64,000 nt of DNA from a bacterium. Lineage in GTDB: Bacteria > Hinthialibacterota > Hinthialibacteria > Hinthialibacterales > Hinthialibacteraceae. The stretch is taken from positions 2,866 to 66,865 of the forward strand of contig JBHGBC010000001.1 of assembly GCA_041946805.1 (NCBI GenBank). Direction: 5' to 3'. A program made the translations under genes and the position numbers. Numbering within the stretch: position 1 is the stretch's first letter; every line of letters starts with the position of its first letter. The notes under the pieces are model-generated. The model was not told the DNA's origin and did not search any database. It saw only the letters and a list, made by a program, of their open reading frames with translations. This document shows positions 19,593 to 40,390 of the stretch, piece by piece.

Positions 19593-21980
19593 ATGAACCG
19601 AATGAACCAGTCCGCTGCCGCCACTCCGTCATCCCCCACTGACCACCGCCTGGTCCGGGCCGCCCTGGTGGGCAATCCCAACACCGGCAAAACCACCTTG
19701 TTCAATGCCCTGACGGGATTGAATCACAAAGTGGGGAATTATCCCGGCGTCACCGTCGAGAGGAAAACCGGCCGCTTCCTGCGGGACGACATGGAAGTGG
19801 AACTGCTCGATCTGCCCGGCACTTACAGCCTGGCGGCCCGCTCGCCGGACGAGATGGTGGTGGTGGACGTGCTGCTGGGGCAACAGAAGGGCGAGGACCC
19901 CATCGACGCCGTCATCGCCATCGTGGACGCCTCCAACATCACCCGGAACTTCTACCTGGTCAGCCAGGTGCTGGAGTTGGGCCTGCCCGTGGCGATCGCC
20001 CTGAACATGACTGATCTGGCCGAAGCCAAGGGGATTCATATCGACGCCACGGGGCTGTCCCACCGGCTGGGCGCGCCCATCGTCCCGCTTTGCGCGAGCC
20101 GCCGTCAGGGAGTGGAACAACTGCAAAAGGCTCTGCGGGAGGTGTTGGCTCGTACGGATCGAACGCCGATCGAATCCCCCATTTTTCCCGAGAAATTGCG
20201 CCTGGCGCTCTACGAGTTGAAACAGGCCATCCAGGCTGGGCCCGGTCCAGCCGTTCCGGTCCCGGAGCCCAAACTGTTCCGGGCCTTGATCGACACGGGC
20301 GGCTATACCGAAAGACGGCTGGTGGAACAGTTGGGCGAACCATTTCGAGCGAAACTGGCGGCCGCCCGTCAAGCGGCCGGCTATGCGCTGCCCCTCGCCG
20401 CCATCGAAACCAAAACCCGCTACGAGTGGGTTGCGGCTCTTCTGAATCCGTACGTCAAACGGCCCGAAGCGTTGATCCCGACCCGTTCCGACCGGATCGA
20501 CAAAATTCTGACCCACCGTTTCTTTGGCACCGTGATCTTCCTGGGCCTGATGGCTTTCGTGTTCCAGGCGATCTATGCCGGCGCGTCGCCATTGATGGAA
20601 CTCATCGACTTGTTTTTCGTCTGGCTGGGCGGCGGCGTGTCACGCTTCCTGCCCGACGGCGCCCTGCGCAGTTTGTTGGTGGATGGAGTGATTTCGGGCG
20701 TGGGGGCGGTGCTGGTGTTTCTGCCGCAGATCGCCATCCTGTTCTTCTTCATCGCTATTTTGGAAGACTGCGGCTACATGCCCCGCGCCGCCTACCTGAT
20801 GGACCGCCTTCTATCCAAGTGCGGATTGTCCGGCAAATCGTTCATCCCCATGCTCTCCAGTTTCGCCTGCGCGGTCCCTGGCATCATGGCCACCCGGACC
20901 ATCGAGGACCGGCGCGACCGGATCACCACCATGCTCGTCGCTCCCTTGATGAGCTGCTCGGCGCGGCTGCCGGTGTACCTCATCTTCATCGCGGCCATGA
21001 TTCCCGGCCGGGCGGTGCTCGGCGGCTGGGTGGGGCTGCAAGGATTGACACTGTTCGGACTCTATCTGATCGGCATCACCGTGGCCGTTCCCATGGCTTG
21101 GCTCATCAAGTATTTCTTTTTCAAGAACGAATCCTCCCCGTTTGTGATGGAATTGCCTTCGTACAAATGGCCCACGCCCCGCACCGTGGCCCTGTACGTG
21201 TACGACAGCGCCGTCGAGTTCGTGCGCCGGGCGGGAACCATCATCTTCTGCGTGGCGATCGTCGTCTGGGCGCTGGCGTACTTTCCCCATCCCGCATCCA
21301 TCGGCGAAGGGTACGTGCATGCCCGCCGGGCGGCGTGGGAAGAACACGAACGGGACCTTCTCCCCCTATTGCATGCCTTGGATCCCCGACGCTACGGGCC
21401 GGAACTAAGCGGAGAAGCATTGCAAGCGGCGCTGGCGGCGGATATCCGCTTGCAAGACGATGAATCCATGCCCGCCGAATGGCAGCCGGTCCGGGCCCGG
21501 ATCGAGGCCTATCAGGTCCACTTGGCTCGGCTGAACAACCAGGAAGCGGGCGATTATCTCCGGCATAGCTGGCTGGGCCGTATGGGGCACATTATCGCGC
21601 CGCTGGCCGAGCCGCTGGGCTGGGACTGGCGGATCGGCATGGCCACTCTGGCTTCGTTCCCCGCGCGGGAGATCATCGTGGCGGTGCTGGGAACCATTTT
21701 CAACCTGGGGGCGGACGCGGACGAGTATTCGCTCAGCCTCCGCGACGCCATCCGCCAGGCGCGGCGGGATGACGGCCGGCCGCTGTTCTCGATCGCGGTG
21801 GCGCTGTCGGTCATGGTCTTCTTCGCGCTGTGTTCGCAATGCGCGGCCACGCTGGCCACCATCAAGCGCGAAAGCAATTCCTACCGCTGGCCGGTATTCA
21901 CCTTCGCGTATTTGACCACCCTGGCCTACCTGGGCGCGTTGATCACCTATCAGATGGCTTGCCGGCTGGGGTTGGGGTGA
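19593..21980 (+). CDS. feoB: Ferrous iron transport protein B
   Basis: 795 aa; N-terminal G-domain (GNPNTGKTTLFNALTG, DLPGTYS), followed by a long polytopic membrane domain with gate motifs. Confidence 0.95.
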   Translation: MNRMNQSAAATPSSPTDHRLVRAALVGNPNTGKTTLFNALTGLNHKVGNYPGVTVERKTGRFLRDDMEVELLDLPGTYSLAARSPDEMVVVDVLLGQQKGEDPIDAVIAIVDASNITRNFYLVSQVLELGLPVAIALNMTDLAEAKGIHIDATGLSHRLGAPIVPLCASRRQGVEQLQKALREVLARTDRTPIESPIFPEKLRLALYELKQAIQAGPGPAVPVPEPKLFRALIDTGGYTERRLVEQLGEPFRAKLAAARQAAGYALPLAAIETKTRYEWVAALLNPYVKRPEALIPTRSDRIDKILTHRFFGTVIFLGLMAFVFQAIYAGASPLMELIDLFFVWLGGGVSRFLPDGALRSLLVDGVISGVGAVLVFLPQIAILFFFIAILEDCGYMPRAAYLMDRLLSKCGLSGKSFIPMLSSFACAVPGIMATRTIEDRRDRITTMLVAPLMSCSARLPVYLIFIAAMIPGRAVLGGWVGLQGLTLFGLYLIGITVAVPMAWLIKYFFFKNESSPFVMELPSYKWPTPRTVALYVYDSAVEFVRRAGTIIFCVAIVVWALAYFPHPASIGEGYVHARRAAWEEHERDLLPLLHALDPRRYGPELSGEALQAALAADIRLQDDESMPAEWQPVRARIEAYQVHLARLNNQEAGDYLRHSWLGRMGHIIAPLAEPLGWDWRIGMATLASFPAREIIVAVLGTIFNLGADADEYSLSLRDAIRQARRDDGRPLFSIAVALSVMVFFALCSQCAATLATIKRESNSYRWPVFTFAYLTTLAYLGALITYQMACRLGLG

Positions 21981-29684: not shown

Positions 29685-31232
29685 CTATATAATCCTCCGG
29701 TACTCTTCCAACTCATATTCCCACACCCGTTCGCCGCAGTAGCGGTCGCCTTCGGGACAGAGGGGCCGCTGCCGGGCGAGCCGCCGCAGCGTACAGGGCG
29801 GCAGCAGGTAGCGCCCGATTTGGGGATTGACCGCGGCGATCTGCCGCGCCTCGTCCAATGACGCCCGCCAAATTTCTTCTTGCGCGTTGTAGCACAGGCG
29901 CATGGCATGCTTGTGCCGCAGGTTCAGCAGGTCGGACGATTCCGTGAAGCGGACGGCCGCCGCGTTGGGCAGGAGATATTCTACGAATTCCTCCCGCACG
30001 CCCCGGCGGCGGAGGGCGTTCATGGCGTCCCAGGCGAGGACCATGCCCTCTTCGTATTCCCGGCGGATGGCGTCGTCGAGTTTGATCAACTCCGGTGTGA
30101 TGAAATCCGGTTCGTCGGTGAGATGGGCGGCCAGGATGGGGCGCGAGGCGGGAGTCATGCGGTGCCGCTGATCCTGCGAATCGGCGGTGTGACTCAGTTT
30201 CTTGCGGAATGTATAGGCCGGGTGATACAGGCAGCGGGAGAGTTTCGACAAGGTCGTCACGTTGAGTGATTCACCCAACAGCCGGTTTTGCCCCGGATCC
30301 AGCACCAGCGCGATGGCCTCGCCGTCGCTCAGGGCGGAGCGGGGAAGACCGAGCACTTCCCGGACCGCGCCGGCCAGGACGGATTCATTGTTGGTTTTAT
30401 AATCGATGAGGCGGGATACCTTCCCCTCCAGGCCTTCATCGAATTCCTGGATGAACGCGCGGGCGTGTTGCGCTTCGGCGGGCCGGTTCGCGAAGAATAC
30501 CCATTCGGGCGTGGCTTCCAGTTCCAAAGGTTCTTCCAGTATTTCTTGAAACTTCGGCTCCACCTCCAGCAGGCATCGCGCCATCTTTTCCACCACTCGG
30601 TGTTGCTCGCTGGGAGCGTCGAACTGGCGGCAGAGGCGGTAATAGCGCAGCAAGGTCACTCCGCTGACGGTGTGATAGAGATAAGCGAAGGTGGCCACCG
30701 GCAGCACGTACCGTGCCGCTTCCTGCGCCCGTTTTTGGATGTCGGCGCGGACCTTTTTATCTTGAAGCGATCGCGCGGGAAAGCGTTTGCGGTATTCGCT
30801 CTCCACCAGGGGAACGAGTTTTTCCCCCAGCAAGCGGTACTGCGCCATCTGCGCGGCGAGGGTGTCCTGGTAAATCTCCAGCGCGGCCCCCGGTAGCGCG
30901 GGGATGACCGCGTTGCCGGGTTTGACGGCCACATACCGCTGGCTCACCTGTTCGGAATTATAAAAAGGATGGCTGTGCAGAAACGACCAGATGAACTGGC
31001 GGGACACGCGGTCCAGGGTGAATTGGAAATAGGCGTGCTGCAGTGTCGTGTGATGCCCGGCCTGGTAGAGGCTCTTGGCCAAAAAATCCCATTTATCGCC
31101 GATTTCGCCGTCGTGGACTATGCCCTTGGAGGAATAGCAGGTCCGCGCCGTGGCCAGGAAATTCCGGTAGGCGGACGGGAACCGCTTCTCCAGGATCACT
31201 ACCGGTTCGGGGGATAGAAACAAATCGGCCAT
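29685..31232 (-). CDS. thyX: ThyX-family (FAD-dependent thymidylate synthase-like) protein with two tandem ThyX domains
   Basis: 515 aa. The N-terminal half aligns with ThyX ([43 protein letters not shown] ~ [57 protein letters not shown] ~ [21 protein letters not shown]). The C-terminal half repeats the fold ([35 protein letters not shown]). The RHR signature is HSH in the first domain and RKK in the second. Confidence 0.75.
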   Translation of the reverse strand: [515 protein letters not shown]

Positions 31233-31364
31233 GCCGCGCTCACATTGCTTAGGTCTGATTGATTAACTCTGTATGTATGGCTCATCCGGCGAGTGTGTCT
31301 TTTTTTTTTCAAAAAATCACGATCGCCATCCAATCCATCTGGTACGACCAATAGCCCTAAATTA

Positions 31365-31500
31365 CCTCTCCCTTTGGTAGAGGGTTAGGGTGAGGGATTT
31401 TTTCTAGGGGCGGACCTTGGTGTCCGCCCGTATCATAACGTGGATAGAATAACGTAACCCCATCATGTACGCGCTTCCCGGATGAACCACATAAGTTATA
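31365..31500 (+). repeat. Mosaic hairpin repeat, copy I (core + GGGTGAGGGATT + TAGGGGCGGACCTTGGTGTCCGCCCG + CATGTACGCGCTTCCCGGATGAACC arm)
   Basis: Full-length composite copy, nearly identical in the hairpin-2 module to copy B. Confidence 0.75.
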
Positions 31501-31611
31501 TGAAATCAAGGTCTTATACCAATCCACTGGATATAATCTCAAAAGTGCGTAAGTGTCGGATTTATATTGACTTACAGATTTCGCCCTCTGGAACTTCGCA
31601 CTCTCTTGTGA

Positions 31612-31733
31612 AGTAATGTCTTTGAGCGCCAACGGCGCGGCAGGAGTATAGCCCGGGTGTAAGCCCTGGGATGTTTGCGAAAAAGTAAATAATCCCCTCT
31701 TCCTCTAGGAAAGGGATAAGGTGAGGGAAACCC
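31612..31733 (+). repeat. Mosaic hairpin repeat, copy J (GTAATGTCTTTGAGCGCCAACGGCGCGG..AAAAGTAAATAATCCCC left arm + degenerate core + GGTGAGGGAAA)
   Basis: Its ~90-bp left arm is about 85% identical to 42551-42640 (copy M). Lies in tandem with copy I in the same intergenic region. Confidence 0.7.
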
Positions 31734-31843
31734 TGCGCTATATCTACTGTCCGTACAATCGATTAAACGGTTCCATATTATTATTTTTGGCTACATTGAG
31801 TGTACTCAACAGAACCTGACCGGATGAATCCCTCTTTCGGCCT

Positions 31844-36024: not shown

Positions 36025-37101
36025 ATGTTTGCGAACGGTCCCCGATTGCGATACTTGATTTACTACATCACCTCGCGCTGCAACCTGCGGTGCGAGCACT
36101 GTTTCTATCTGGAGGAATTGAACAAGCATGACGAAATGACCCCGGAGGAAATCGGGCGGGTGGCCCGCGGCGTCCATCCCTTGCCCTTCGTACGGGTGAC
36201 CGGCGGCGAGCCTTTTCTCCGCAAAGACTTGCCCGAAGTGCTCCAGGCCTTTTACCGCCACGCCGCCACGCGGCGGATGGGAATCATCACCAACGGAACC
36301 CGCCCGGCGTGGGTGGAGGAATCGGTCCGGCGGCTGCTGGAACTATGCCCGGAGTTGGCGGTGGACGTGGGAGTCTCGATCGACGGTTTGGAGGCCACGC
36401 ATGACGCCATCCGGAGGCTGCCCGGTTCGTACGCCAAGGCGCGGGAAACAGTGGAGCGGTTGAACGCATGCAAATCCGGCTTGGCCAACCTGTTGACCTC
36501 CATCGTCATGACCGTCACCGCGAGAAACGAATCCCAGCTGGACGAATTGTATGAGGAAATGGCCGGGTTGGGGGTGGACCGGTTGTCCGTCAATCACGTG
36601 CGCGGCAAGGTGCATGATCCCTCCCTGCTGGAGATTTCATTCGACAAGTACCGGGAGTTCGCCGAGCGGTGCGAGCGGTACCACCTGGACCGGGACCGGA
36701 GTTGGAAGGCGGGCGTCCAACGGGCCAAGAACCGCCTGGCGCGCGCGGCCATCAACCAGGTGGCCCGGGGCGAGCCTTCGGATATTCCCTGCCTGGCGGG
36801 ATCGGCGATCGGCGTGCTTTACTCGGATGGGACGGTATCCCTGTGCGAAATGCTGGAAGATGAACTGCCGGCGGGGAACGGCGGAGGCGCGGCCCATCCC
36901 CGCCTGGGTAACGTGCGCGAGACCGGATATGATTTTTATGCCATTTGGAATTCCGAAAACACGCAACGCTGCCGCGAGTGGATCGCCGCGACCCGCTGTT
37001 CCTGCACCCACGAATGTTTCCTGACCGCCAGCATCCTGTTCAATAAGCGCAATTACCCCCGGTTGTTCAAGGAGTGGGTGCGGCAAGGGGTGGGGCGGTA
37101 G
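36025..37101 (+). CDS. Radical SAM enzyme with C-terminal SPASM/twitch-like Cys cluster
   Basis: CNLRCEHCFY (Cx3Cx2C) near the N-terminus, GGEPFL glycine motif, and C-terminal cysteines (CLAGSAIGVLYSDGTVSLCEM ... CREWIAATRCSCTHEC). No precursor peptide ORF is evident nearby. Confidence 0.8.
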   Translation: MFANGPRLRYLIYYITSRCNLRCEHCFYLEELNKHDEMTPEEIGRVARGVHPLPFVRVTGGEPFLRKDLPEVLQAFYRHAATRRMGIITNGTRPAWVEESVRRLLELCPELAVDVGVSIDGLEATHDAIRRLPGSYAKARETVERLNACKSGLANLLTSIVMTVTARNESQLDELYEEMAGLGVDRLSVNHVRGKVHDPSLLEISFDKYREFAERCERYHLDRDRSWKAGVQRAKNRLARAAINQVARGEPSDIPCLAGSAIGVLYSDGTVSLCEMLEDELPAGNGGGAAHPRLGNVRETGYDFYAIWNSENTQRCREWIAATRCSCTHECFLTASILFNKRNYPRLFKEWVRQGVGR

Positions 37102-37274: not shown

Positions 37275-39998
37275 TCAGCGGGGCCGGGTGGGCCAGGGCG
37301 TGGGGTGGATGTAGAGATGAGAAACGTCGATCACGCCGAGATCCGTCGCCTGGTCCGCGTTGACTTCCACTTCGGACAATATTTCCTGCCCCATGGCTCC
37401 TCCTTCCATCGTATAAAAACAAAACAACTGGTAGCGCCCCGGGGGGACGTTGTCGATCTGAAAGCGTCCCGATTCCGGTTGGGTGGTGGGATAGACCGCG
37501 TCGAAATAGGCCGGGCGGTCCAAATCATTTCCGGTCAGGCGCAGTTCCTTGATGTTGGAATACAAATGGTAGGGGCGGAGCACGCCGTACACGATGCCCT
37601 GGCCTTGGCGGGTCAGGCGGATTTCCAGCGGTTTCACGACGCCGGGAGATTCGAAACCGATTTCCTGACGGGCGTTGACGTAACCCTCGGCCTCGATGGT
37701 AACCAGGTATTCGCCCGGCAGGGGGGCGGAAAACGAAAAGACTCCCGGCTGTCCGGCGTCCCAAACGCCTTCACGGAGGGACCAGTTCAAGAAGTTGGTG
37801 AATTCGGGGAACCGATAACCAAGCGAGGCCTTGAACTCGGTCAGGGGTTGGTTTGTGGCGCCGTCCCGCACCGTGCCGAGAATGCCGCCTTCGGGTTGCA
37901 GGGAAATCAGCAGATCGCGGGAACCCGGTTCCACGGGCACCAGATAGGCGAAGAACGCGCCAGTGGGGAAGATATCCCGCGTGGATCGCAGGGGAAACGG
38001 CCATACGTATTGGGAATCGCCATACCAGGCCATGATCTGTAAGGTGCTGATAGGATAAACATTTTCGATGACAAACCGGCCTTGGGAGTCCGTTTCGGCG
38101 GTCTGGAATTCGGCGCCCATGAGGAGGACCATGGCGCCGCGGGCGGGATTTCCATCAGGGAGCAGGACCGTGCCGGAAAGCATGTCTCCCTTGTGGAGGA
38201 TGAAATTCTCGTTAAGGACTGTTTCTCCGGCGATTTCCACGAAGCGCAGCTGGTATTCATATCCAGGGGCCCGAACGGCCACGGCCACTCCGTTTTGCCC
38301 GTTGTATACCTCTTCAGGAATCGTGGCGGGTACGTGCTCGAGCCGGTAGCGGCCGTCCGGCCCGGAAGTCACGCTGCGCGATTCGGATCGGTCCTTGTAC
38401 ACCTTCATCGTGATCTGGGCCTGGGGGATGGGGTGGTTCATGGTGTCGGAGATCCGCCCTTGGATCGTGAGTCCCGAGGTCAGGATCAGGTCGATGTTCT
38501 CGAGACGGTCGCCTGCGGAAAACTCGAGCCGCCCGCTGAATCCCGCCGCGTAATCGGAGTGGTGGGCCATGATCCGCCCCTGATCCTTGCCTGATTTGGG
38601 GATTTGGCGGAACGGGGCAAGACGAGTGAAGGCGTAATCGCCTTCCGCGTTGGTGCGCACCGGAGGTTGTGCCTGCCCATGGCCGATCCACTCGACCTCG
38701 GCGTTCGCGATGGGCTCTCCTTTCTCGTTCCGGACATGGCCGGAAACCGAACCGAAGGGCTCCAACTCCACGGTCATGTTCTCCAAGCCTTCGATTGGTA
38801 CCTGAACGGGCAGGGAAGCCGGGGCGAAGAGTGCTGTGTCACTGGCGGCCGCGCGCAGGATGTACCGGCCGGGAAGCACCGTCTCGAAAACGAACCGTCC
38901 TTCCGGGCCGCTCTGGGCGCGGGCGGCCTGCACCTGGAAGGCTTGACCCAGGCGGAAATCCAGCAGTTCGACGGGGATGCCGGAGATAGGCTCGCGGGTT
39001 TGTTGGTTCAATACCACTCCGGAAACGGGGACTGGCCGGCTTTCAAGGATCAAGGTCACTTCATGGACGGCATGGGTGATCTTCAGTTCGATTTTTCCGG
39101 GGGGATAGCCGGTGGCTTCGGCCACAAGCGTGGCCGGCTGGGGCGGAATATCCGTGAAATAGAAACGCCCATTGGGCGACACCGGCGCGCGATACAAGAT
39201 CATCCCCCGCTCTCCCCGGCTGGTCAGCGAGACCGCCGCGCCGGGCAGGGGATGGCTCCAGATGTCGAGCACGGCGCCTTCGATCCGGGCGAGCCGGGTC
39301 AGGACGATGGCTTCCTCACGGTCGCCGTCCAGGAGAAGGCTTTTTTCGGAAACCAAGTAATTATCCGCCGAGACCGTGAGGCGGTAATGGCCCGCCGGCA
39401 GTCCTTCGAAGAGGAACGATCCATCGGCGCCGGATTGGGCGTTCCAATGTTGTCCCGGCGTGGCCAGGGTGATTGCGGCGCCCGCGACCGCGGATTCGGA
39501 GGACGACAATACCCGGCCGGAAAGCAAATACACGGGCGGACGCAGGATCAGCGCCACCGATTGCTCCCGGGGAGACGAAGCGGTGATTTGGACCGTGGCC
39601 TCGCTGGGGCTGTAGCCGGCGGCGGCGGCGGAGACACGGAATTCGCCCGGCATGAGGATCATCAAGCCGCATCGGCCCTGGGTGTCGCTGACGGCCGTGT
39701 GAAAATACGGCCGCTCGGAGGTGGAGGACAAGGTCACCCGCGCGCCGGATACCGGTTGTCCCTCCGAATCCGTGATGAGACAGTTCACGGAGTAGGCGGT
39801 GCTGGGGAACAAGTTCGAGGGCGTTGAGGAAACCGGCGTGGCGCGTGGGAGCAAGGGAAGGACCGGCGTGAGCGCCTTGGCGAGTCCCGGCGTGGCGGTA
39901 TCCGGTCCTGAATCCGGCATCCACAGGGCGGTTAAGATCAAAGCGCCCAGACTAAGGATAAACAGTAACGCGAGCAATACCGGCAGAAAATTTTTCAT
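37275..39998 (-). CDS. Large N-terminally anchored protein made of about 9 carboxypeptidase-regulatory-like (CarbopepD_reg) beta-sandwich repeats
   Basis: N-terminal TM helix (MKNFLPVLLALLFILSLGALIL), then repeated units of the form G..V.L......TD..G...L..PG.Y...A.A.GY. Start is most likely the ATG at 39998; the ORF track extends to 40094. Confidence 0.7.
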   Translation of the reverse strand: MKNFLPVLLALLFILSLGALILTALWMPDSGPDTATPGLAKALTPVLPLLPRATPVSSTPSNLFPSTAYSVNCLITDSEGQPVSGARVTLSSTSERPYFHTAVSDTQGRCGLMILMPGEFRVSAAAAGYSPSEATVQITASSPREQSVALILRPPVYLLSGRVLSSSESAVAGAAITLATPGQHWNAQSGADGSFLFEGLPAGHYRLTVSADNYLVSEKSLLLDGDREEAIVLTRLARIEGAVLDIWSHPLPGAAVSLTSRGERGMILYRAPVSPNGRFYFTDIPPQPATLVAEATGYPPGKIELKITHAVHEVTLILESRPVPVSGVVLNQQTREPISGIPVELLDFRLGQAFQVQAARAQSGPEGRFVFETVLPGRYILRAAASDTALFAPASLPVQVPIEGLENMTVELEPFGSVSGHVRNEKGEPIANAEVEWIGHGQAQPPVRTNAEGDYAFTRLAPFRQIPKSGKDQGRIMAHHSDYAAGFSGRLEFSAGDRLENIDLILTSGLTIQGRISDTMNHPIPQAQITMKVYKDRSESRSVTSGPDGRYRLEHVPATIPEEVYNGQNGVAVAVRAPGYEYQLRFVEIAGETVLNENFILHKGDMLSGTVLLPDGNPARGAMVLLMGAEFQTAETDSQGRFVIENVYPISTLQIMAWYGDSQYVWPFPLRSTRDIFPTGAFFAYLVPVEPGSRDLLISLQPEGGILGTVRDGATNQPLTEFKASLGYRFPEFTNFLNWSLREGVWDAGQPGVFSFSAPLPGEYLVTIEAEGYVNARQEIGFESPGVVKPLEIRLTRQGQGIVYGVLRPYHLYSNIKELRLTGNDLDRPAYFDAVYPTTQPESGRFQIDNVPPGRYQLFCFYTMEGGAMGQEILSEVEVNADQATDLGVIDVSHLYIHPTPWPTRPR

Positions 39999-40390
39999 CG
40001 GTTTGAATCCTGCAATCGATCCCTCAAGACGGACGGGCAAGGATGGATCGGAAAATCCGCGGCCGTATCCATGCGGCAGGCCGGGTGGTTGCAATGAGAA
40101 GTTGTCGCATGGAAACAGGATTCAATCAAGATGGATCGAGGAGGGAGGGACCGCGGAGAAGATGCTGGGGTCACCTTAAAAGGCCGTGGACCGAAGGGAC
40201 TCAAAGGACCAAAAGGGTCTGATGGTTATGTAAATCCGCCCTATCCCACGCTTCCCTGGCCGGATCTTCTGAAATCCCGCCCCGTTCCTCTTTATGAATG
40301 ACCTATCCTGATGGATGATGAAACCGGAAACGGAGCGGGATTTTGTTTCGGAACCATTCAGGGAATTAGGAGCTTGCGGGAGCGGCCATC

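What the first reader, a model, noticed from the sequence alone, without database searches (positions are those of the whole stretch)
29685..31232. Tandem-domain ThyX with degenerate RHR/SQRY signatures in both halves
The 515-aa protein contains two ThyX folds in one chain. The N-terminal domain aligns well with M. tuberculosis ThyX but has HSH where the RHR motif normally sits, keeping the S-x-SQRY part. The C-terminal domain has RKK at the RHR position and DQRH at the QRY position. Canonical ThyX forms active sites at subunit interfaces of a homotetramer. A fused pseudo-dimer with diverged motifs could be a rearranged or complementary active site, or a ThyX-like enzyme with different chemistry. 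No thyA is present in this window.
Basis: partly seen in the sequence, partly recalled or inferred. Interest (0 to 1): 0.55.

Follow-up and report, generated by a model that had tools for sequence, protein, structure and literature searches.

The report
Two-domain ThyX thymidylate synthase
This gene encodes a widespread, already-annotated double-length form of the flavin-dependent thymidylate synthase ThyX, in which the catalytic residues are not decayed but split cleanly between the two halves, so the halves must cooperate to build each active site.

Summary
The 515-aa ORF at 29685-31232 (-) is real, and both halves are full ThyX (PF02511) domains. The C-domain has an intact R356-H357-R358 at the end of the equivalent helix; "RKK" lies in the preceding beta-strand.

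Neither motif is degenerate. In 65 homologs down to 31% identity the canonical ThyX residues are invariant but partitioned. H53, R74, S88, G89(Q), R90, E144 and R147 (T. maritima numbering) are kept only in the N-domain. Q75, R78, R80 and R174 are kept only in the C-domain.

Published ThyX structures place Q75 and R174 on one monomer, S88/Q89 on a second and H53 on a third. I therefore infer a homodimer (pseudo-tetramer) with two composite active sites instead of four.

The family is very large: at least 593 species genomes, about 300 clusters at 50% identity, many bacterial phyla, CPR and DPANN archaea. It is annotated as FAD-dependent thymidylate synthase, and its domain duplication was noted in 2009.

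It is ordinary as a gene. The residue partition, four invariant cysteines unique to this form and the lack of a solved structure give modest interest.

The parts
29685..31232 (-). thyX, tandem-domain flavin-dependent thymidylate synthase, 515 aa plus stop codon
   Evidence: ORF; two PF02511 domains; 100% identical NCBI protein named FAD-dependent thymidylate synthase
30540..31220 (-). N-terminal ThyX domain (aa 5-231), the 'loop-donor' domain. It keeps the equivalents of S30 (C32), H53 (H60), R74 (R78), N85 (N92), E86 (Q95), S88 (S97), G89 (Q98), R90 (R99), Y91 (Y100), E144 (E171) and R147 (R174). It lacks R78, R80 and R174.
   Evidence: hhalign vs T. maritima ThyX, 98% probability; conservation table; HMMER alignment to M. 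tuberculosis ThyX residues 38-156
30933..30980 (-). N-domain motif [16 protein letters not shown] (aa 85-100): the RHR position without its arginines, followed by the active-site loop S97-Q98-R99-Y100
   Evidence: Nearly invariant in 118 close and 65 diverse homologs and in 80 genome loci. Two family members carry an intein inserted between the N92 and S93 equivalents.
30417..30539 (-). Interdomain linker (aa 232-272), with two helices in the model
   Evidence: AF2 secondary structure H242-249 and H254-268; no Pfam match
29814..30416 (-). C-terminal ThyX domain (aa 273-473), the 'flavin/body' domain. It keeps Q75 (Q353), R78 (R356), H79 (H357), R80 (R358) and R174 (R445). It lacks H53, R74, the S88-Y91 loop and R147.
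   Evidence: Pfam 67.7 bits; hhalign vs T. maritima ThyX, 92% probability; conservation table; HMMER alignment to M. tuberculosis ThyX residues 156-226
30138..30206 (-). C-domain segment [23 protein letters not shown] (aa 343-365). RKK sits in a beta-strand; the true RHR is R356-H357-R358.
   Evidence: hhalign pairs SQDQRHR with T. maritima RQWFRHR; strand 339-347 and helix 348-357 in the AF2 model; R356 and R358 are 65/65 invariant
29868..29915 (-). C-domain segment [16 protein letters not shown] (aa 440-455), containing R445 (equivalent to catalytic R174) and the invariant C447
   Evidence: Ungapped alignment to T. maritima NFLNLRADSHAQWEI and to M. tuberculosis RHFIAMRASEHADVEI; R445 and C447 are 65/65 invariant
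29688..29813 (-). C-terminal tail (aa 474-515) with the invariant cysteines C480-x11-C492-x6-C499. Together with C447 it is a candidate Cys4 metal or redox site.
   Evidence: The C-x11-C-x6-C spacing is present in 77 of 80 genome loci. The cysteines are invariant or >=90% conserved in A2 and A3. The tail is confidently modelled (pLDDT 92-96). No Pfam match. [quoted passage not shown]

Best explanation
This is the cell's flavin-dependent thymidylate synthase (dUMP + CH2-THF + NADPH to dTMP). It is built as a single-chain pseudo-dimer of two ThyX domains that have divided the catalytic work between them. The C-domain is the 'body'. It holds FAD through R356-H357-R358 (canonical R78-H79-R80), and supplies Q353 (Q75) and the dUMP-activating arginine R445 (R174). 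The N-domain is the 'donor'. It supplies the flexible active-site loop Q95/S97/Q98/R99/Y100 (E86/S88/G89/R90/Y91), the phosphate-binding arginines R78 and R174 (R74, R147), E171 (E144), the folate-loop residue C32 (S30) and the folate/flavin-stacking histidine H60 (H53). A canonical ThyX site uses three monomers, with H53 coming from a monomer other than the one giving the loop. Two chains should therefore pair into a pseudo-tetramer (N1-C1-N2-C2) with only two complete sites, each made of one C-domain and both N-domains. The two mirror-image pseudo-sites (N-domain body) lack R78, R80 and R174 and should be catalytically dead. What is shown: the two ThyX domains, the residue partition and its invariance, and the breadth of the family. 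What is inferred: the quaternary structure, the number of sites, and the activity.
For: Two full ThyX domains. Strictly complementary invariance in 65 homologs of 31-60% identity. N-domain only: C32, H60, R78, S97, Q98, R99, E171 and R174, all 65/65. C-domain only: Q353, R356, R358 and R445, all 65/65, plus H357 at 62/65. The counterpart positions in the other domain are variable or non-equivalent. Invariance persists when 66 CPR-clade sequences are added. Canonical ThyX best matches the tandem profile in a split way: its first half to the N-domain (65 bits) and its second half to the C-domain (35 bits). For PBCV-1 ThyX, Gln75 and Arg182 (= T. maritima R174) come from monomer A, and Ser88 and Gln89 from monomer B (PMC3498832). 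Active sites lie at the interface of three monomers, with H53 on 'monomer-3' (PMC11940539). R78 stabilises FADH-, R174 activates dUMP, and S88/R90/Y91 assist catalysis. The dUMP contacts in M. tuberculosis ThyX (R87, R95, Q103, Q106, R107, R172, R199) all have an invariant counterpart in one domain. pTM 0.91 indicates a fixed interdomain arrangement, and the lowest pLDDT falls on the two active-site loops, which are known to be flexible. Family breadth and conservation fit an essential enzyme: at least 593 GTDB species genomes, at 56-81% identity in the 80 loci kept, which span many phyla, and 308 clusters at 50% identity with E<=1e-30. Non-Dehalococcoides Chloroflexi are reported to have only the duplicated ThyX (PMC3224940), and an Ardenticatena (Chloroflexi) locus is 60% identical. 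COG counts give Acidobacteria 6/6 ThyX and 0/6 ThyA. Two family members carry an intein exactly at the base of the N-domain loop; from established knowledge, that kind of site is typical of functionally critical motifs.
Against: No activity, cofactor or oligomer data exist for this protein, and no member of the tandem family is in the PDB. I had no access to model coordinates, so the composite site was never checked in 3D. The assignment of R74 and R147 to the loop-donor monomer is inferred from the conservation pattern, not read from a structure. TIGR02170 (thyX equivalog) scores 84.2 bits, just below its 87.9 cut-off. Several FAD-contact positions that I recall from canonical ThyX differ in the C-domain (N163->D434, N169->H440, H178->N449). 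The N-domain 'dead' pocket keeps some invariant residues (H86, R196, E209) whose role is unexplained. The rest of this genome could not be searched for thyA or a canonical thyX.
Confidence: 0.72

Rival explanations
1. Neofunctionalised ThyX-like enzyme: the tandem protein methylates or otherwise modifies a different pyrimidine nucleotide (as PolB does with UMP), or uses a different reductive chemistry, and is not the housekeeping thymidylate synthase.
For: TIGR02170 is below its cut-off. There is weak sequence similarity to canonical ThyX (best PDB hit for the single sequence E 3e-9). Four invariant cysteines are unique to the family. Chlamydial ThyX sequences are described as too divergent for phylogenies. 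The duplicated form was called uncharacterised in 2009.
Against: Every dUMP, FAD and folate residue of canonical ThyX is invariant in one domain or the other. PolB matches far less well than M. tuberculosis ThyX (E 1.4e-6 vs 1.6e-27). There is no conserved neighbourhood or biosynthetic cluster. The family is present across phyla said to rely on ThyX alone.
Confidence: 0.08
2. Only one domain is catalytic and completes its sites by pairing with the same domain of other chains. The other domain is a purely structural pseudo-enzyme scaffold.
For: The two domains are only about 19% identical. Such pseudo-enzyme partners are common after duplication (established knowledge).
Against: Neither domain carries a complete residue set. 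The C-domain lacks H53, R74, S88, R90, Y91 and R147. The N-domain lacks R78, R80 and R174. The residues each domain does keep are 65/65 invariant, which a mere scaffold would not require.
Confidence: 0.08
3. All four pseudo-symmetric sites are active: the N-domain-body sites use substitute residues in place of R78, R80 and R174.
For: The N-domain pocket retains H86 (H79), R196 and E209 as invariant or near-invariant residues. The C-domain loop has S363 and R364 in the close family.
Against: The position equivalent to the dUMP-activating R174 is variable in the N-domain (C, A, S or M). The R80 position is variable there too, and the R78 position is hydrophobic. The C-domain positions equivalent to S88-Y91 are variable across the diverse set.
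Confidence: 0.07
4. Assembly or gene-calling artefact that fuses two adjacent thyX genes.
For: None found.
Against: The same uninterrupted ~515-aa architecture occurs in thousands of independent sequences and at least 593 species genomes. There is a conserved linker and a confident single-chain model.
Confidence: 0.01

Closest known systems
Canonical homotetrameric ThyX / FDTS (T. maritima TM0449, M. tuberculosis Rv2754c, PBCV-1 A674R; PF02511, EC 2.1.1.148)
   Same: Same fold in both halves. The same catalytic, FAD-, dUMP- and folate-contact residues are present. Sites are expected to form at domain interfaces, using three ThyX units.
   Different: One chain carries two non-identical ThyX units (about 19% identity). 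No single unit has the complete RHR-x7-S / R174 set. Two sites per pseudo-tetramer are predicted instead of four. There is an extra Cys-rich tail and a ~40-residue linker. The protein scores below the TIGR02170 cut-off.
'Duplicated ThyX' noted in Chloroflexi and a few other species (Valas & Bourne 2009, PMC3224940)
   Same: Same architecture. A Chloroflexi (Ardenticatena) locus is 60% identical over residues 5-515. The window protein is a member of this group.
   Different: That paper only notes the duplication and says it is uncharacterised. The residue partition, the cysteine signature and the very wide distribution (CPR, DPANN, Thaumarchaeota, more than 15 bacterial phyla) are not described there.
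Chlamydia trachomatis ThyX (CT632), purified and assayed (Griffin et al. 2005 from my memory; used in PMC3498832)
   Same: From memory, not verified here: it is about 529 aa, that is double length, and active with NADPH, FAD and CH2-THF. Chlamydial ThyX are described as too divergent for ThyX phylogenies. C. trachomatis ThyX shows NADPH oxidase activity and is inhibited like other ThyX.
   Different: I could not retrieve its sequence, so membership in this exact family and presence of the same signatures are untested.
PolB, the ThyX-fold UMP/dUMP methylase of polyoxin biosynthesis (PDB 4P5A/4P5B)
   Same: ThyX fold; it appears among the Foldseek and profile hits.
   Different: It is single-domain, matches much more weakly than genuine ThyX, and sits in an antibiotic gene cluster, whereas this gene has no conserved neighbours.
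Monomeric herpesvirus dUTPases (established knowledge, not tested here)
   Same: An analogous evolutionary route: duplication and fusion of a homo-oligomeric nucleotide enzyme, with the conserved motifs redistributed over the two halves so that fewer, composite active sites remain.
   Different: Unrelated fold and chemistry; offered only as an analogy.

Membership tests
ThyX / flavin-dependent thymidylate synthase (PF02511, EC 2.1.1.148) | ThyX (Thy1) fold | tested here: met
   Both halves hit PF02511 (90.3 and 67.7 bits against a cut-off of 24.8). hhalign to T. maritima ThyX gives 98% and 92%. Foldseek top hits are all ThyX, with target-normalised TM 0.65-0.75.
ThyX / flavin-dependent thymidylate synthase (PF02511, EC 2.1.1.148) | ThyX motif RHR-x7-S (with S-x-R-Y) within one domain | tested here: not met
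   The N-domain has L-H-S-H-P in place of RHR but keeps S97-Q-R-Y. The C-domain has R356-H357-R358 but no S-x-R-Y loop: the equivalents of S88-Y91 are variable. The motif is complete only when the two domains are pooled.
ThyX / flavin-dependent thymidylate synthase (PF02511, EC 2.1.1.148) | Complete set of conserved FAD, dUMP and folate residues (H53, R74, Q75, R78, H79, R80, S88, R90, Y91, E144, R147, R174) | tested here: met
   All are present and invariant or near-invariant, each in one domain: eight in N, four in C, and H79 in both.
ThyX / flavin-dependent thymidylate synthase (PF02511, EC 2.1.1.148) | NCBIfam TIGR02170 thyX equivalog trusted cut-off | tested here: not met
   84.2 bits against a cut-off of 87.9. 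NCBI and JGI nevertheless name the homologs FAD-dependent thymidylate synthase / ThyX.
ThyX / flavin-dependent thymidylate synthase (PF02511, EC 2.1.1.148) | Homotetramer with four active sites, each at the interface of three monomers | not testable with these tools
   Only single-chain prediction without coordinates was available. I predict a homodimer (pseudo-tetramer) with two sites, inferred.
ThyX / flavin-dependent thymidylate synthase (PF02511, EC 2.1.1.148) | FAD-, CH2-THF- and NADPH-dependent conversion of dUMP to dTMP | not testable with these tools
   This needs biochemistry or complementation.
ThyX / flavin-dependent thymidylate synthase (PF02511, EC 2.1.1.148) | Acts as the thymidylate synthase of the genome (thyA usually absent) | tested here: inconclusive
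   No thyA, folA or second thyX is in the 64-kb window, and the rest of the genome is not available. The literature reports Chloroflexi with only the duplicated ThyX, and Acidobacteria at 6/6 ThyX and 0/6 ThyA.
Tandem ('duplicated') ThyX subfamily | Two PF02511 domains in one chain of about 500-550 aa, with N-domain signature [15 protein letters not shown] and C-domain signature S-H-T-A-D-S-Q-x-Q-R-H-R | tested here: met
   The window protein carries both signatures. In the 80 GTDB loci, the [15 protein letters not shown] form (x = S, A or Q) was found in 74 and near variants in 4 more, and the commonest C-domain forms all keep DSQ[DN]QRHR. The diverse representatives keep both as well.
Tandem ('duplicated') ThyX subfamily | Cysteine signature R-x-C(447) ... 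P-C(480)-x11-C(492)-P-E-G-x-R-x-C(499)-G | tested here: met
   Present in the window protein and in 77 of 80 loci. C447, C480 and C499 are invariant, and C492 is >=90% conserved in A2 and invariant in A3.
PolB-type UMP/dUMP C5-methylase | Closest similarity to PolB, and location in a nucleoside-antibiotic gene cluster | tested here: not met
   The profile hit to 4P5A has E 1.4e-6, against 1.6e-27 for M. tuberculosis ThyX. The neighbours are a UvrD/PcrA helicase and a GT2 glycosyltransferase. There is no conserved synteny in 80 loci.

The most novel reading that the evidence does not exclude
The four invariant cysteines are C447, two residues after the dUMP-activating R445, plus C480, C492 and C499 in the tail. 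They could form a redox-active centre (an Fe-S cluster or a dithiol relay) next to the flavin. That would give tandem ThyX enzymes an electron-entry route different from the direct NADPH-to-FAD reduction of canonical ThyX. It would combine with an obligatory two-site, asymmetric architecture and a possibly regulatory nucleotide pocket in the 'dead' N-domain body. The more likely, mundane reading is a structural Zn(Cys)4 site.
Probability: 0.12. Interest if true: 0.7.

Novelty: new member of a known kind. Interest (0 to 1): 0.33.

Why it matters
ThyX is an antibacterial target and a mechanistic curiosity. All structural and most kinetic work has been done on the single-domain homotetramer. The double-length form is the version found in a very large share of environmental bacteria: Acidobacteriota, Nitrospirota, Chloroflexi, Chlorobi, Gemmatimonadota, Planctomycetota, Verrucomicrobiota and CPR, as well as DPANN archaea.

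The clean partition of invariant residues works as a natural 'heterodimer experiment'. It shows which residues of a ThyX site must come from which subunit, and it predicts a two-site enzyme in which single point mutations can probe each role without the fourfold symmetry problem. It also gives a simple sequence rule for annotating this form, which falls just under the TIGR02170 cut-off.

For this window, however, the gene is an ordinary, already-annotated housekeeping gene.

Tried and rejected
1. Literature on tandem ThyX. Only Valas & Bourne 2009 mentions the duplication. Griffin 2005 and Leduc 2004 are not held. Reviews and the Asgard ThyX paper say nothing about it.

2. Verifying that Chlamydia ThyX belongs to this family. 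Name look-ups of 20 divergent representatives gave Thaumarchaeota, Patescibacteria, Nanoarchaeota and Aenigmarchaeota, but no Chlamydiae. A search seeded with a divergent member (P0246) returned the CPR clade. This remains unresolved.

3. Conserved gene neighbourhood as a functional clue. None was found within +/-3 kb in 80 loci. The window neighbours are a UvrD-like helicase and a GT2 glycosyltransferase.

4. Riboswitch or other RNA in the 600-bp upstream gap. No Rfam hit at gathering score anywhere in the window. Promoter and terminator scans were at background level.

5. Known domains in the Cys-rich tail or the linker. No Pfam hits at E<=10.

6. A global-mode hhalign of N vs C on the shallow alignment gave nonsense. 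It was redone in local mode on the diverse alignment.

7. The first AF2 run with 60 close homologs left the C-domain core at pLDDT <50. I rejected this as evidence against a ThyX fold after the deeper alignment gave pLDDT 93.

8. Assembly or fusion artefact: rejected.
Full report
**The observation**

It is 100% identical to an NCBI metagenome-assembled-genome protein annotated 'FAD-dependent thymidylate synthase'.

Pfam PF02511 (Thy1/ThyX) matches twice. When the halves are scanned separately, the N-half scores 90.3 bits (E 1.8e-25) and the C-half 67.7 bits (E 1.5e-18). Each covers essentially the whole 191-position profile. Profile-profile comparison using a diverse family alignment gives these results:
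- N-domain vs T. maritima ThyX: 98% probability.
- C-domain vs T. maritima ThyX: 92% probability.
- N-domain vs C-domain: 95.7% probability over 200 columns, at about 19% identity.

A first AlphaFold2 run with 60 close homologs left residues 319-369 at pLDDT <50. Adding 66 sequences from a divergent clade raised the model to mean pLDDT 93 and pTM 0.91, with the same order of strands and helices in both halves. Foldseek against the PDB returns only ThyX-fold structures (ThyX, plus the UMP/dUMP methylase PolB). Target-normalised TM is 0.65-0.75 and query-normalised TM about 0.32, so each hit covers one half. No two-domain ThyX structure exists in the PDB. The tandem-domain claim is therefore confirmed.

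**The motifs**

The N-domain description is right. At the RHR position the protein has L85-H86-S87-H88-P89, with only the histidine retained. The downstream N92-S-E-Q-V-S97-Q98-R99-Y100 aligns to M. tuberculosis S-Y-S-Q-L-S105-Q-R107-Y108 and to T. maritima N85...S88-G-R90-Y91.

The C-domain description is wrong. 'RKK' (343-345) aligns to T. maritima H65-V66-K67 and sits in beta-strand 339-347 of the model. 'DQRH' is the beginning of D354-Q355-R356-H357-R358, which aligns column for column with T. maritima W76-F77-R78-H79-R80 at the C-terminal end of helix 348-357. The C-domain thus has an intact RHR. What it lacks is the S-x-R-Y loop.

Neither motif is degenerate. [16 protein letters not shown] and [19 protein letters not shown] are almost invariant in three sets:
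- 118 full-length homologs.
- 80 loci from GTDB species genomes.
- Representatives down to about 33% identity.

**The residue partition**

I mapped the canonical functional residues (T. maritima numbering) onto both domains. I then counted conservation in 65 homologs of 31-60% identity (alignment A2).

Invariant 65/65 in the N-domain:
- C32 (S30, folate loop)
- H60 (H53)
- R78 (R74)
- S97 (S88)
- Q98 (G89)
- R99 (R90)
- E171 (E144)
- R174 (R147)

T62, H66, H86 (H79), N92 (N85), Q95 (E86) and Y100 (Y91) are near-invariant in the N-domain. At the same structural positions the C-domain is variable or different: T327, S352, A368-L371 and E418.

Invariant 65/65 in the C-domain:
- Q353 (Q75)
- R356 (R78)
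- R358 (R80)
- R445 (R174)

H357 (H79) is conserved in 62/65. At these positions the N-domain is variable or hydrophobic: Q79 is variable, position 85 is L or F, S87 is variable, and position 201 is C, A, S or M. The same invariants hold in a 103-sequence alignment that adds the CPR clade.

Independently, HMMER aligns M. tuberculosis ThyX to the tandem profile in a split way. M. tuberculosis residues 38-156 match the N-domain (65 bits) and residues 156-226 match the C-domain (35 bits).

**How this fits canonical ThyX**

Published structural descriptions say that each ThyX site lies at the interface of three monomers, and that H53 sits on 'monomer-3' (PMC11940539). In PBCV-1 ThyX, Gln75 and Arg182 (= T. 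maritima R174) come from monomer A, while Ser88 and Gln89 come from monomer B (PMC3498832).

The reported residue roles are as follows:
- R78 stabilises the reduced flavin.
- R174 activates dUMP.
- S88, R90 and Y91 assist methylene transfer.
- The M. tuberculosis dUMP contacts are R87, R95, Q103, Q106, R107, R172 and R199.

Every one of these has an invariant counterpart in exactly one domain of the tandem protein, and the A/B/3 assignment coincides with the C/N/N split.

The most economical reading is that the C-domain is the flavin-holding body, and the N-domain donates the active-site loop, the phosphate clamp and the stacking histidine. Two different N-domains are needed per site, so the enzyme should be a homodimer. 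That is a pseudo-tetramer with two complete sites and two dead pseudo-sites.

The placement of R74 and R147 on the loop-donor unit is my inference from the conservation pattern. I could not inspect coordinates.

**Distribution and context**

The 80 best loci are 56-81% identical. They span Omnitrophota, Nitrospirota, Acidobacteriota, Gemmatimonadota, Ignavibacteriota, Chlorobi, Bacteroidota, Planctomycetota, Verrucomicrobiota, Myxococcota, Chloroflexi, Sumerlaeota, Marinimicrobia and others.

An exhaustive search of 1.84 billion cluster representatives gave 308 clusters with E<=1e-30. Named members include Thaumarchaeota, Nanoarchaeota, Aenigmarchaeota and many Patescibacteria.

There is no conserved neighbourhood. 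In the window the gene lies between a UvrD/PcrA-type helicase and a GT2 glycosyltransferase. No thyA, folA or second thyX is in the window, which says little about the whole genome.

Valas & Bourne (2009) already noted that most Chloroflexi have only a ThyX 'with a domain duplication ... not characterized'. A COG census lists Acidobacteria, Chlorobi and Chlamydiae as ThyX phyla largely without ThyA.

From memory, C. trachomatis ThyX is also double length and active, but I could not verify that it carries these signatures. The only support I found is indirect.

**What remains unexplained**

Four cysteines are invariant or nearly so across the whole family. They are C447, two residues after R445, and C480-x11-C492-x6-C499 in a confidently modelled, largely non-regular C-terminal tail. 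[quoted passage not shown] A structural Zn(Cys)4 site is the default guess. A redox role next to the flavin cannot be excluded.

The N-domain pseudo-pocket also keeps a few invariant residues (H86, R196, E209) of unknown role.

**Verdict**

The object is real, and the 'complementary active site' idea is supported. The 'degenerate motifs' premise and the C-domain mapping are wrong. The gene is a standard member of a huge, already-annotated and previously noticed ThyX subfamily.

What modest interest it has lies in three things: the clean subfunctionalisation pattern, which I did not find described; the unexplained cysteine signature; and the absence of any solved structure.

Noticed in passing
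window 29688-29813 and 29868-29915 (aa 447, 480, 492, 499): Four cysteines (R-L-C447 and P-C480-x11-C492-PEG-x-R-x-C499-G) are invariant or >=90% conserved across the whole tandem ThyX family and absent from canonical ThyX. They are a candidate metal or redox site adjacent to the catalytic R445. No Pfam match.
   Followed up: partly
related proteins P0139 (821 aa) and P0160 (840 aa); insertion point equivalent to window aa N92|S93 (nt ~30954-30957): Two tandem ThyX representatives carry a full intein (PF14890, with an HNH-like endonuclease block). It is inserted exactly at ...HPYYN|C...HN|SEQ.SQRY, that is, at the base of the N-domain active-site loop.
   Followed up: partly
window 10720, 24996, 31381, 31712, 37215: A short REP-like element, CCCTCACCNTAWCCCT (part of small hairpins such as CCCTCACCCTAACCCTCT...GGGAGAGG), occurs 5 times against 0 expected. 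Two copies lie in the ~600-bp gap upstream of thyX.
   Followed up: partly
window 31233-31843: An unusually long (~610 bp) non-coding gap lies between the GT2 gene and thyX. It has no Rfam match at gathering score, and promoter and terminator matches are only at background level.
   Followed up: partly
alignment A2 vs PDB: Canonical M. tuberculosis and C. glutamicum ThyX align to the tandem profile in a split fashion. Their N-terminal half matches only the N-domain and their C-terminal half only the C-domain. This mirrors which half of each domain stayed under catalytic constraint.
   Followed up: yes
protein aa 319-369 (window ~30126-30278): AlphaFold2 confidence for the C-domain core depended strongly on alignment diversity. 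pLDDT was <50 with 60 close homologs and 80-98 after adding 66 CPR-clade sequences. A shallow-MSA model would have wrongly suggested a disordered or non-ThyX core.
   Followed up: yes
related proteins P0181, P0179, P0228, P0249 and the P0283-P0398 set: The tandem form is not confined to bacteria. Named members come from Thaumarchaeota/Nitrososphaerota, Nanoarchaeota and Aenigmarchaeota MAGs. There is also a large, distinct Patescibacteria (CPR) clade with an N-terminal extension and the variant signatures HD..H and SQRQRHR.
   Followed up: partly
window 36025-37101 (+), 37275-40094 (-), 19593-21980 (+): Other genes seen while surveying the surroundings: a radical SAM/SPASM protein, a 939-aa protein made of CarboxypepD_reg-like repeats, and FeoB. 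None is linked to thyX.
   Followed up: no
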